Below the pieces are notes generated by a model, which saw only the letters and a program-made list of their open reading frames with translations, did no database searches and was not told where the DNA came from. This document shows positions 39,357-39,916 of a DNA stretch of 47,013 nucleotides, piece by piece. The position numbers and the translations under genes are program-made. Origin of the DNA: a virus (lineage: Duplodnaviria; Heunggongvirae; Uroviricota; Caudoviricetes); IMG/VR virus record IMGVR_UViG_2541047907_000003. The stretch is one strand, 5' to 3'. How positions within the stretch are numbered: the first letter of the stretch is position 1; the number at the start of each line of letters is the position of its first letter.

Positions 39357-39916
39357 GTGTTTTTATTCTCTGTAGTAATCTCTGTTGTATTCTCTGTAAG
39401 ATCATCAGGCCATTTTGACCCGATGACATTGGGTCGTTTTGAACCAATGGAGCGTTTCATTTTGACCTCTTCCATCGTGTCATTTTGACCTGATGGAGCG
39501 GCGCATTTTGAACCGATGGATTCGTTCAATTTGCCACCATCTAAAAGCTCGCTCCCATAGTTGATCGTGTAGAAATTGGTCATATCGCGCTTTGATTTAT
39601 TGAGCTTTTCACAACGCAAAAGCCCCAGCGTTTTCAGACTTGCAAACGCGCGCTTTAACGTTGACTCTGACCAGAATGGGAACTGTTCCAGCCATTGTTC
39701 CGTTGTGTTGTAAATCCAGCGAACACCATCACATTCCATGCCGGAATTGGTATCTCTCAACCAGTAATGCAACTGCTGCAACACAATGGCTTCATTTAAG
39801 CCAATCTTCATCGCAAGCTGTGTGTTTATAACCAGTGGGCGTTCAGCAAAAAGAAGGCTCATAATTCCATCCAGCTTTTTGTTGGTATTGCAGTCGATAC
39901 GCAAGTTTGAAAGCAA
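39357..39916 (-). pseudogene. replication initiator (lambda O-like replisome organiser), 3' end interrupted by the IS629-like element
   Basis: ORF 39308..39916 has N-terminal MSLLFAERPLVINTQLAMKIGLNEAIVLQQLHYWL..., but its last 16 codons lie inside the IS terminal repeat; iteron array lies inside the ORF. Confidence 0.7.
39411..39540. repeat. iteron array of the phage replication origin (about six repeats, 23-24 bp period) followed by an AT-rich tract
   Basis: CATTTTGACC / CGTTTTGAAC / CATTTTGAAC units starting near 39411, 39435, 39458, 39481, 39504 and a degenerate copy at 39528; AT-rich 39357-39410. Confidence 0.75.

What the first reader, a model, noticed from the sequence alone, without database searches (positions are those of the whole stretch)
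39411..39540. Iteron array with about 23-bp periodicity inside the initiator coding sequence
About six repeats of CATTTTGA(C/A)C spaced 23-24 bp apart, followed by an AT-rich tract (39357-39410). This is the lambda-type origin architecture, where the initiator binds iterons located within its own gene and unwinding starts in the flanking AT-rich DNA. The repeats also encode a reiterated peptide (SIGSK-like) in the minus-strand ORF.
Basis: seen in the sequence. Interest (0 to 1): 0.5.

Follow-up and report, generated by a model that had tools for sequence, protein, structure and literature searches.

The report
Orphaned phage replication origin, IS-broken initiator
The repeats are a real lambda-style phage replication origin (six initiator-binding sites plus an easily melted tract) lying inside the initiator's own gene, but in this prophage an insertion sequence and a 154-bp deletion have broken that gene, so the origin is a well-preserved relic of a known kind.

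Summary
Six 23-bp units (39403-39541, minus strand) share the core GGTCAAAATG at 23-23-23-23-24 bp spacing. Lag-23 autocorrelation is 0.55, reached by 0 of 5000 shuffles. A 30%-GC tract follows (39357-39402).

The lambda-type origin reading is supported by comparison. The array lies between the two domains of an O-like initiator. It is kept in relatives down to 46% identity (Staphylococcus and Bacillus phages). Its cores are read in all three frames, so the DNA is what is conserved, not the peptide.

- **The gene is broken.** A 1310-bp IS629-type element (38047-39356) abuts the AT-rich tract, and 154 bp of the gene are missing. The origin cannot fire from its own initiator.
- **The "AT-rich tract" is a specific element.** It is a tandem 12-mer (ACAGAGAnTAC, three copies) conserved at nucleotide level in initiator genes of phages from Proteobacteria and Firmicutes, behind several unrelated iteron types.

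No binding or replication was tested. Verdict: a new member of a known kind, of modest interest.

The parts
39403..39541 (-). Iteron array: six 23-bp units. Gene-sense consensus is CATcGGGTCAAAATGAcCCGATg, a semi-palindrome centred on an A4 tract.
   Evidence: Spacing 23, 23, 23, 23, 24 in gene order. Lag-23 autocorrelation 0.55, 0 of 5000 shuffles. The same array is present in 77 of 80 near-identical viral loci and in diverged relatives.
39519..39541 (-). Iteron unit 1 (most distal, degenerate): GATGGTGGCAAATTGAACGAATC
   Evidence: 12/23 positions self-complementary; core read as G-K-L.
39496..39518 (-). Iteron unit 2: CATCGGTTCAAAATGCGCCGCTC
   Evidence: Core read as I-G-S-K.
39473..39495 (-). 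Iteron unit 3: CATCAGGTCAAAATGACACGATG (dyad-symmetric)
   Evidence: 16/23 self-complementary; core read as G-Q-N.
39450..39472 (-). Iteron unit 4: GAAGAGGTCAAAATGAAACGCTC
   Evidence: Core read as V-K-M.
39427..39449 (-). Iteron unit 5: CATTGGTTCAAAACGACCCAATG (dyad-symmetric)
   Evidence: 16/23 self-complementary; core read as I-G-S-K.
39403..39425 (-). Iteron unit 6 (next to the AT-rich tract): CATCGGGTCAAAATGGCCTGATG (dyad-symmetric)
   Evidence: 16/23 self-complementary; core read as I-G-S-K.
39357..39402 (-). AT-rich tract, the presumed unwinding element. Three tandem 12-mers, gene sense ...TTACAGAGAATA CAACAGAGATTA CTACAGAGAATA AAAACAC. 30% GC; the sense strand is 52% A. The IS cuts it off about 4 nt before its natural end.
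   Evidence: (D3). Conserved at DNA level in other initiator genes.
39357..39862 (-). 5' part of the O-like initiator gene (gene nt 1-506, codons 1-168 plus 2 nt). Covers the winged-helix N-terminal domain, the iteron-coded linker and the AT-tract-coded TENTTEITTENKNT.
   Evidence: 3 mismatches to mEp460_ev081 CDS; PHROG 391, 1e-92, for the intact protein.
38047..39356 (-). IS629/IS1203-type IS3-family insertion sequence, 1310 bp. orfA is 38976-39302 and orfB 38089-38979, with an ALIL frameshift pseudoknot at 38905-39021. Terminal repeats are TGAACCGCCCCGGG. Its first 49 nt (39308-39356) supply a 16-residue tail and the stop codon for the truncated 184-aa initiator ORF.
37741..38046 (-). 3' remnant of the initiator gene (gene nt 661-966, codons 221-321 plus stop). 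This is the rest of the lambda-O-like C-terminal domain. It is out of frame with the 5' part even if the IS were removed, because gene nt 507-660 (154 bp) are absent.
37744..37806 (-). DnaT-like C-terminal tail of the initiator (VQRCVNHISEPDTEIPPGFRG)
   Evidence: matches the C-terminus of primosomal protein 1/DnaT, PDB 6aep, 2ru8, 9zbt. Kept in 73 of 80 loci.
37278..37700 (-). DUF977 / 'Ren-like' gene that follows the initiator, in the position where lambda has its helicase loader P.
39843..40364 (-). CII-like / YdaT-family gene directly upstream. Its end overlaps the initiator start by 20 nt.
40348..40578 (-). Cro-like regulator (P22_Cro), first gene of the rightward early operon that reads through the origin.
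40656..41063 (+). Divergent HTH repressor (DicA/CI-like)

Best explanation
This is the replication origin of a lambdoid (Qin/Rac-like, mEp460/HannyBb-type) prophage, built on the lambda plan but now orphaned.

**How it works in intact relatives.** A 321-aa initiator carries the origin in the DNA that encodes the linker between its two domains.
- Shown: there are six semi-palindromic 23-bp iterons spaced 23-24 bp apart, about 2.2 helical turns.
- Inferred: each iteron binds a dimer of the initiator's winged-helix N-terminal domain. The phased, A-tract-centred sites then wrap into an 'O-some'-like complex.
- Inferred: the resulting strain melts the adjacent AT-rich tract of three tandem ACAGAGAnTAC 12-mers.
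- Inferred: the host replicative helicase is brought in through the lambda-O-like C-terminal domain and a DnaT-like tail. These phages encode no helicase, loader or primase of their own.
- Inferred from lambda: transcription from the early rightward promoter through cro and cII into the origin probably assists firing.

**State in this window (shown).** An IS629-type element lies directly against the AT-rich tract, and 154 bp of the gene (codons 169/170 to 220) are lost. The only product left is a 184-aa N-terminal fragment with an IS-encoded tail. The 3' remnant is out of frame, so precise IS excision would not restore the gene.

**Consequence.** The iterons and almost all of the AT-rich tract are intact, but the locus cannot initiate with its own protein. 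It could at most be bound by the truncated DNA-binding fragment, or fired in trans by a phage of the same specificity.
For: - **Array is real and non-random:**
- **Position:** gene nt 322-460 of a 966-nt gene, then the AT tract at 457-510. Lambda has iterons at nt 349-433 of 900, then its AT-rich tract.
- **Homology to lambda O:** aa 147-294 of the intact protein align with the lambda O C-terminal half at 34% identity, E 3e-28. The alignment starts at the AT-tract-coded residues. PHROG 'replication initiation O-like' scores 1e-92.
- **Conservation:** relatives with 79%, 75%, 63%, 61%, 58%, 56%, 51% and 46% identical N-domains (E. coli, Klebsiella, Erwinia, Pseudomonas, Providencia, Staphylococcus and Bacillus phages) all have 2-6 CAAAATG-type cores about 23 bp apart at the same place, followed by ACAGAGA units.
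- **Initiator-specific repeats:** initiators with other N-domains (lambda, Stx1_14040 and at least 4 further types) have different repeats but the same 23-bp period.
- **DNA-level selection:** cores are read in all three frames. Invariant alignment columns are 80% in cores against 63% in the N-domain and in spacers, and 93% in the AT block.
- **Viable phage:** HannyBb, deposited as a complete phage genome, has this module with 6 nucleotide differences in the 506-nt 5' part. Its only annotated replication gene is this initiator.
- **Precedent:** lambda has 4 iterons and Stx phages 933W/P27 have 6, each followed by an AT-rich tract in the middle of O, and O binds them in vitro (PMC7466680).
- **Disruption:**. 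The exact truncated product occurs in only two records, one draft E. coli-type chromosome scaffold and one metagenome contig. The junction is absent from 5,426 complete E. coli genomes.
Against: - No experiment links these repeats to initiation. For this initiator type I found no paper that maps an origin or shows binding.
- The enrichment of conservation in the iteron cores is modest (43/54 against 178/282 columns).
- The codon test on the AT block is partly circular, because the block was delimited by its CAGAGA motif.
- In lambda the initiator works with P; here no loader is present, so the helicase-recruitment step is conjecture.
- Units 1 and 4 are poor palindromes and may not be bound. 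In Stx phages only four of six iterons are bound efficiently.
Confidence: 0.8

Rival explanations
1. The repeats are a binding array for the initiator or another regulator, but serve control rather than initiation. Possibilities are autoregulation, handcuffing or titration, or exclusion of related phages. The true origin would lie elsewhere in the phage.
For: - Iteron arrays in plasmids also serve copy-number control (general knowledge of iteron plasmids).
- Ectopic lambda ori copies inhibit cognate phages (PMC4488673 and PMC3349717, abstracts listed).
- In this window only a DNA-binding fragment of the initiator can be made.
- No origin mapping exists for this phage type.
Against: - The array is always followed by the conserved low-GC 12-mer block, and it always sits in the inter-domain linker. 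This is the arrangement of the experimentally defined lambda and Stx origins.
- The same chassis recurs with several unrelated initiators.
- No other repeat cluster with this core exists in the 47-kb window.
- No promoter-like site lies in 39250-40000 that the array could regulate.
Confidence: 0.1
2. The periodicity reflects a tandemly repeated peptide in a flexible protein linker (SIGSK-like, then TEITTE-like). Selection would act on the protein, with no DNA-level function.
For: - The region does code for a low-complexity linker between two folded domains.
- The peptide IGSK recurs three times, and TE(N/I)TTE recurs.
Against: - The unit is 23 bp, not a multiple of 3. The six cores are read in three frames (GKL, IGSK, GQN, VKM, IGSK, IGSK) in this gene and in every relative.
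- Loss of one unit causes a frameshift (L071).
- Units carry dyad symmetry, which has no meaning for a peptide.
- In Bacillus phage TP21-L the ACAGAGA units are 10-11 bp apart, so the middle one is read in another frame.
- Glu is GAG in 28 of 28 codons inside the block against 78 of 186 outside, including in AT-rich Staphylococcus and Bacillus phages (with the stated circularity).
Confidence: 0.03
3. The origin is still used. The prophage is replicated from these iterons by an intact initiator of the same specificity encoded elsewhere in the host genome or by a superinfecting phage, so the locus is functional in trans rather than a relic.
For: - All six iterons and 46 nt of the AT tract are intact. 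They differ from viable phage HannyBb at only 2 positions within the array (gene nt 338 and 430).
- The module is very common in E. coli prophages, so co-resident copies are plausible.
Against: - The far side of the AT tract is now a GC-rich IS end, and 154 bp of native flank are gone.
- Whether the same genome holds an intact copy could not be checked.
- The prophage carries a second transposase as well, in keeping with decay.
Confidence: 0.07

Closest known systems
ori-lambda within gene O of phage lambda
   Same: - Iterons with internal dyad symmetry around an A-rich centre (lambda TCCCTCAAAACGAGGGA; here GGGTCAAAATGGCC).
- Spacing of 20-24 bp, and a position in the middle third of the initiator gene.
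- An A-rich, low-GC tract immediately on the C-terminal side.
- A C-terminal half of the initiator that is homologous (34% identity, E 3e-28).
- The gene follows cro and a cII-like gene in the rightward early operon.
   Different: - Six units instead of four, and a strict 23-bp period.
- The N-terminal DNA-binding domain is unrelated by sequence (no Phage_rep_O hit).
- The AT tract is a tandem 12-mer, not an oligo-A/G run.
- There is no P gene. The initiator ends in a DnaT-like tail that lambda O lacks.
- In this window the gene is broken.
Origins of Stx phages 933W and P27 (six iterons; PMC7466680)
   Same: Six iterons followed by an AT-rich tract in the middle of O. In those phages the distal iterons are more weakly bound, and here the distal unit is degenerate.
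   Different: Those are lambda-type iterons and a lambda-type O with P. Binding and replication were shown experimentally there, and nothing is shown here.
'Replication protein O' genes of Stx1/Stx2 phages of the Stx1_14040 type (followed by a DnaB-like helicase gene)
   Same: They share an almost identical AT-rich 12-mer block (40 nt at 97.5% identity) and a 23-bp iteron period.
   Different: The N-terminal domain, the iterons (GGGAAAnCC type) and the C-terminal domain all differ, and the phage encodes its own helicase.
RepA_N plasmid initiators (pSK41 / pTZ2162 RepA; PDB 4pta, 4pt7, 4pql, 5kbj) and PLE RepA
   Same: [quoted passage not shown]
- The N-domain binds DNA while the C-domain is variable and host-specific.
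- From my own knowledge (Weaver et al. 2009, not read here), RepA_N plasmid origins also lie within the rep coding sequence.
   Different: There is no detectable sequence membership: no Pfam RepA_N hit at E<=1 and no profile hit to PDB sequences. These are plasmid, not phage, systems, and they have no lambda-O-like C-domain.
IS629 / IS1203 (IS3 family)
   Same: 1310 bp; orfA (HTH_Tnp_1) and orfB (rve) with an ALIL frameshift pseudoknot; TGAACCGCCCCGGG terminal repeats; one mismatch to the copy in L068. The name IS629 comes from my own recollection of its length and ends. RefSeq calls neighbouring copies 'IS3-like element IS1203 family'.
   Different: No matching target-site duplication is present (flanks GTT and GTG), because 154 bp next to one end were lost.

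Membership tests
Lambda-type phage origin embedded in the initiator gene | Array of at least 3-4 direct repeats of about 18-23 bp with internal dyad symmetry, spaced about 20-24 bp | tested here: met
   Six units at 23/24 bp. Three are 16/23 self-complementary. Lag-23 autocorrelation is 0.55, reached by 0 of 5000 shuffles. Lambda reference spacing is 20, 24, 23.
Lambda-type phage origin embedded in the initiator gene | Array lies inside the initiator ORF, between the N-terminal DNA-binding part and the C-terminal part | tested here: met
   Gene nt 322-460 of 966. The N-domain model covers aa 1-109, and the lambda-O-like region starts at aa 147.
Lambda-type phage origin embedded in the initiator gene | AT-rich tract directly flanking the iterons on the C-terminal side | tested here: met
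   39357-39402 is 30% GC against 50% for the window, and the sense strand is 52% A.
Lambda-type phage origin embedded in the initiator gene | Repeats are specific to the initiator's DNA-binding domain (they change when the N-domain changes) | tested here: met
   The same core occurs in all relatives of this N-domain. Different repeats occur in lambda, Stx1_14040-type and at least 4 other N-domain classes.
Lambda-type phage origin embedded in the initiator gene | Initiator binds the repeats and melts the AT-rich tract; replication starts there | not testable with these tools
   Needs EMSA or footprinting, permanganate probing and origin mapping. No such data were found for this type.
Lambda-type phage origin embedded in the initiator gene | Intact cognate initiator gene in cis | tested here: not met
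   IS at 38047-39356, gene nt 507-660 missing, remnants out of frame.
Lambda-type phage origin embedded in the initiator gene | Adjacent phage helicase loader (P) or helicase gene | tested here: not met
   DUF977 follows the initiator in the window and in its close relatives (L001, L002); other non-loader genes follow it in L003 and L004. No helicase or loader is found downstream, and none is annotated anywhere in phage HannyBb.
Lambda O protein family | N-terminal domain matches Pfam Phage_rep_O (PF04492) | tested here: not met
   Lambda O hits it at 5.7e-36. The intact relative of this protein has no hit at E<=1, and the window halves have no Pfam hit.
Lambda O protein family | C-terminal half homologous to lambda O | tested here: met
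   BLASTP 34% identity over 148 aa, E 3e-28, for the intact relative. Only aa 221-321 of it survive in the window.
RepA_N / DnaD-NTD-like winged-helix initiators | Sequence match to the family (Pfam RepA_N, or solved members) | tested here: not met
   No RepA_N hit at E<=1. The profile against PDB sequences gives only PadR-like winged-helix hits at E 0.1.
RepA_N / DnaD-NTD-like winged-helix initiators | N-terminal domain has the RepA_N/DnaD-NTD fold | tested here: inconclusive
   [not shown]
RepA_N / DnaD-NTD-like winged-helix initiators | [quoted passage not shown] | tested here: met
   Consensus is CATCGGGTC-AAAA-TGACCCGATG. The definition is taken from PMC7145576.
IS3-family insertion sequence (IS629/IS1203 type) | orfA (HTH) and orfB (DDE integrase core) with a programmed-frameshift signal and terminal inverted repeats | tested here: met
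   HTH_Tnp_1 7e-13; rve 8e-28. ALIL pseudoknot 120 bits. Ends are TGAACCGCCCCGGG at 38047 and its complement at 39356.
IS3-family insertion sequence (IS629/IS1203 type) | Short direct target-site duplication | tested here: not met
   The flanks are GTT and GTG. This is explained by the 154-bp loss next to the element.

The most novel reading that the evidence does not exclude
The 'AT-rich tract' may not be a generic meltable spacer. It may be a sequence-specific element (tandem ACAGAGAnTAC, period 10-12 bp) that, together with a fixed 23-bp iteron period, forms a common origin chassis. That chassis would be shared by at least five unrelated initiator DNA-binding domains in phages of Proteobacteria and Firmicutes. 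Such nucleotide-level conservation across hosts of very different GC content would imply recognition by something universal. Candidates are the replicative helicase, the primase (the complementary strand carries CTG every 12 nt) or a common single-strand-binding surface of the initiators. It would also mark the joint at which N- and C-terminal initiator modules are swapped. A corollary is that initiators ending in the DnaT-like PPGFRG tail recruit the host helicase-loading machinery directly, which would explain phages with a single replication gene.
Probability: 0.3. Interest if true: 0.55.

Novelty: new member of a known kind. Interest (0 to 1): 0.33.

Why it matters
**For this locus.** The finding explains the repeat cluster fully and shows the prophage cannot replicate autonomously. 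That bears on whether this DicF/DicB-carrying prophage can still be induced, amplified or mobilised.

**More generally.** It documents an uncharacterised iteron type (GGTCAAAATG semi-palindromes, 23-bp period). This type belongs to a common single-gene replication module of E. coli and Klebsiella prophages, whose initiator combines a RepA_N/DnaD-like DNA-binding domain, a lambda-O-like C-domain and a DnaT-like tail.

The side observations may be of more interest than the array itself, and all are cheap to test with plasmid replication assays:
- a 12-mer tandem block conserved at nucleotide level across phyla;
- repeated IS629-type hits in that block;
- no phage-encoded loader.

Tried and rejected
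- **Pfam on the two gene halves and on the intact protein:** no family found. NCBIfam also found none.
- **First Pfam call failed** because of a frame error in my coordinates.
- **The search for related loci with the N-domain alignment:** returned only 98-100% identical loci. They were useless for divergence but served later as a population sample. Diverged relatives came from tblastn instead.
- **The search for homologous proteins:** returned mostly short or partial proteins. These were adequate for the structure alignment only.
- **Full-text search for the sequence strings** (ACAGAGATTAC, TEITTE, GGTCAAAATG): only unrelated noise. The search for mEp460 gave prophage-typing papers only. A search for origin papers on DnaD-like phage initiators gave one satellite paper.
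- **Looking for the window's exact IS junction in complete E. coli genomes:** none found. The single full-coverage hit (OkiPb01689) proved to be a different, independent insertion at gene nt 651 with a 3.7% divergent IS. The top hits of the broader search carry the IS in DUF977 instead.
- **N-domain profile against PDB sequences:** nothing significant.
- **Papers on DnaT:** they gave no defined partner for its C-terminal tail. Two of my queries were rejected for syntax.
- **Rejected ideas:** promoter or terminator function of the array; a structured RNA, since no Rfam hit lies in the array; a tRNA-linked feature, since there are no tRNAs; chance; a peptide repeat.
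Full report
**1. The observation**

The + strand between 39403 and 39541 holds six head-to-tail 23-bp units.
It has one mismatch at 39435 and three at 39527.
- Spacings are 24, 23, 23, 23, 23 bp.
- In the whole window, both strands, the pattern with up to one mismatch occurs 14 times (9.1 expected). Five of those fall in this 103-bp stretch on one strand.
- Autocorrelation of 39403-39541 peaks at lags 23, 46 and 69 (0.55, 0.55, 0.53). In 5000 shuffles the best lag averaged 0.36 and never exceeded 0.49.
- In gene sense (minus strand) the consensus is CATcGGGTCAAAATGAcCCGATg.
- Units 3, 5 and 6 are 16/23 self-complementary; the chance of that is below 0.001 each.
- The tract 39357-39402 is 30% GC against 50% for the window. 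It consists of three tandem 12-mers.

**2. The gene is broken**

The minus-strand ORF over the repeats (39308-39916) runs into the end of an insertion sequence.
- The element spans 38047-39356 and is 1310 bp long, with TGAACCGCCCCGGG termini.
- It has an HTH_Tnp_1 orfA and an rve orfB and an ALIL frameshift pseudoknot. It is an IS629/IS1203-type IS3-family element.
- I aligned the flanks with the intact 966-nt gene of phage mEp460_ev081, which is 99% identical.
  - Window 39862-39357 equals gene nt 1-506.
  - Window 38046-37741 equals gene nt 661-966.
  - Gene nt 507-660 (154 bp) are absent.
- There is no matching target-site duplication.
- The two remnants are out of frame, so excision of the IS would not repair the gene.
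- The only product is a 184-aa N-terminal fragment with 16 IS-encoded residues.
- That exact product is on record in one draft chromosome scaffold (GCA_000460595.1) and one metagenome contig.
- The junction is absent from 5,426 complete E. coli genomes.

The rest of the window is a Qin/Rac-like lambdoid prophage. It has head and tail genes, DicF, a dicA/dicC-type immunity region, an integrase and a second transposase.

**3. What the intact protein is**

- Residues 147-294 align with the C-terminal half of lambda O at 34% identity, E 3e-28. The alignment begins at the residues coded by the AT-rich tract.
- The whole protein matches PHROG 391, 'replication initiation O-like', at 1e-92.
- The N-terminal 105 residues do not match Pfam Phage_rep_O, which lambda O hits at 6e-36. 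They match no other Pfam, NCBIfam or PDB sequence family either.
- An AlphaFold2 model built from 39 homologues (pLDDT 86) is a winged helix.
- Foldseek also puts RepA_N structures and a Rep-DNA complex at the top, weakly.
- RepA_N iterons are described as semi-palindromic direct repeats whose inverted repeats converge on a poly-A tract (PMC7145576). That matches these units.

**4.

- tblastn with the N-domain finds 155 phage records. I read nine genes spanning 100% to 46% identity, from E. coli, Klebsiella, Providencia, Erwinia, Pseudomonas, Staphylococcus and Bacillus phages.
- Every one has two to six CAAAATG-type cores 22-24 bp apart directly after the N-domain, followed by ACAGAGA units.
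- Among 80 near-identical viral loci, 77 have the same six cores at 23-23-23-23-24, and 73 encode the intact 321-aa protein.
- In the three-way alignment of the E. coli and Klebsiella genes, invariant columns are as follows:

| Segment | Invariant columns |
|---|---|
| N-domain | 63% |
| Iteron cores | 80% |
| Between cores | 63% |
| AT block | 93% |
| After the block | 56% |

- The cores rotate through all three reading frames in every gene. The IGSK peptide is therefore a by-product in three of six units, and the DNA is what is conserved.
- One locus (L071) has lost exactly one 23-bp unit and is frameshifted.

**5. Comparison with known origins**

- Lambda has four iterons at gene nt 349-433 of 900, spaced 20, 24 and 23 bp, followed by an A-rich tract.
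- Stx phages 933W and P27 have six iterons, of which four are bound efficiently; the AT-rich tract is needed for unwinding but not for binding (PMC7466680).
- Lambda, and the Stx1_14040-type 'protein O' genes, have other N-domains and other repeats. Repeat sequence therefore tracks the DNA-binding domain, as expected for initiator-specific sites.

**6. The AT-rich tract is a specific, widely shared element**

- The Stx1_14040-type genes match my query only over 40 nt of this tract, at 97.5% identity.
- In the 80 loci read, the block lies in an ORF whose N-domain is of this type in 41 and of the Stx1_14040 type in 19. Most of the other 20 fall into at least four further types; two are fragments of this same gene.
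- In 79 of these loci (those with enough upstream sequence), across all classes, the 145 nt upstream show their best self-similarity at lag 23, or at 45/46.
- A 50-nt query finds the block at 85-100% identity in 132 isolated phages of Acinetobacter, Staphylococcus, Bacillus, Klebsiella, E. coli, Pseudomonas, Erwinia, Vibrio and Lactobacillus. It almost always lies under a replication-initiator annotation.
- Inside the block, Glu is GAG 28 times and GAA never, against 78 and 108 outside. Thr is ACA/ACT 48 times against 3 for ACC/ACG. This test is partly circular because I delimited the block by CAGAGA.
- In Bacillus phage TP21-L the units are 10-11 bp apart, so one is read in another frame.

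I found no paper describing this element, but the library is incomplete.

**7. Mechanism**

*Shown:* the anatomy, its conservation, the domain make-up of the initiator, and the disruption.

*Inferred by analogy with lambda, Stx-phage and RepA_N systems:*
- Dimers of the winged-helix domain bind the semi-palindromes.
- The 23-bp phasing, with an A-tract at each centre, lets the complex wrap.
- The adjacent 12-mers melt.
- The helicase is recruited through the C-terminal part.

These phages have no helicase, loader or primase gene. DUF977 follows the initiator in the window and its close relatives, and other non-loader genes follow it in mEp460_4F5 and Klebsiella MC05. The complete HannyBb genome lists the initiator as its only replication gene.

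The last 21 residues match the extreme C-terminus of E. coli DnaT. A similar tail ends the mEp460_4F5 and Klebsiella MC05 initiators, although their C-domains differ. The DnaT papers I read do not assign a partner to this tail, so the idea that it recruits host loading machinery is only a lead.

**8. State of this copy**

- The iterons and 46 nt of the AT tract are intact, with two differences from HannyBb inside the array.
- The initiator is dead, the native flank beyond the tract is gone, and a GC-rich IS end now abuts the tract.
- The most likely status is a relic.
- Trans-activation, or titration of a related phage's initiator, cannot be excluded (see rivals).

**9. Verdict**

However, the initiator is not of the lambda O N-terminal type, it has no P partner, and in this window it is inactivated. 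This is a new member of a known kind. Interest is modest (0.33), lifted somewhat by the conserved 12-mer block, the recurrent IS hits in it, and the DnaT-like tail.

Noticed in passing
window 39357-39402; L015 and L068 (gene nt ~479); L008 (gene nt 651); L006 and L007 (DUF977 gene): IS629-type elements have hit this replication module repeatedly and independently. Two different insertions lie inside the ~50-bp AT-rich 12-mer tract: the window's at gene nt 506, and L015/L068 at nt ~479 (no deletion, IS differs by 1 nt). A 3.7%-divergent copy sits at nt 651 in strain OkiPb01689, and two others are in the downstream DUF977 gene. The origin's AT tract may be an insertion hot spot.
   Followed up: partly
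window 37744-37806 (-); L001:3455-3517: The initiator ends in ...SEPDTEIPPGFRG, which matches the extreme C-terminus of E. coli DnaT (PDB 6aep, 2ru8, 9zbt; 13-14 of 21 identical, E 0.03 in a PDB-only search). A similar tail (IPAGFRG, VPAGFRS) ends the mEp460_4F5 and Klebsiella MC05 initiators, whose C-domains differ. Lambda O and the Stx1_14040-type protein lack it. It is possibly a mimic used to recruit host helicase-loading machinery.
   Followed up: partly
L218 (phage HannyBb, whole genome); window 33000-37700: Phages with this initiator carry no annotated helicase, helicase loader or primase; the initiator is the only replication gene. In HannyBb and mEp460_ev081 the next gene is DUF977 ('Ren-like'); in mEp460_4F5 and Klebsiella MC05 other non-loader genes follow. 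In the window DUF977 is followed by a 495-aa protein with no Pfam hit (35475-36962, phrog_13260, unknown function).
   Followed up: partly
L098-L177; phage records: The tandem ACAGAGAnTAC block is conserved at 85-100% nucleotide identity in initiator genes of phages infecting Acinetobacter, Staphylococcus, Bacillus, Klebsiella, E. coli, Pseudomonas, Erwinia, Vibrio and Lactobacillus. It lies behind at least five unrelated N-terminal domains, and the upstream repeats have a 23-bp period in all classes. It also marks the joint where different C-terminal domains (lambda-O-like, Phg_2220_C/DnaD-like, others) are attached.
   Followed up: partly
L071:2840-2970: One viral locus has lost exactly one 23-bp iteron unit, which frameshifts the initiator (144-aa product). 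Because 23 is not a multiple of 3, changes in unit number are constrained by the reading frame.
   Followed up: yes
window 33786-35126 (-): A second transposase gene (446 aa; HTH_28/HTH_32 plus rve_3; PHROG transposase 2e-137) lies in the same prophage, a further sign of decay.
   Followed up: no
window 35205-35371 (-), 42207-42258 (+), 25042-25427 (-), 27935-28327 (-), 132-330 (-): Rfam hits at gathering score: sok antitoxin RNA (hok/sok-type module), DicF sRNA, two cspA thermoregulator leaders (prophage cold-shock genes) and IS009 RNA.
   Followed up: no
window 37741-38007 (-): The 3' remnant of the initiator retains an internal ATG. That gives an 88-aa ORF (MRPKEPNW...PPGFRG) covering the conserved end of the lambda-O-like domain and the DnaT-like tail. 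Whether it is expressed from IS-borne outward transcription is unknown.
   Followed up: no
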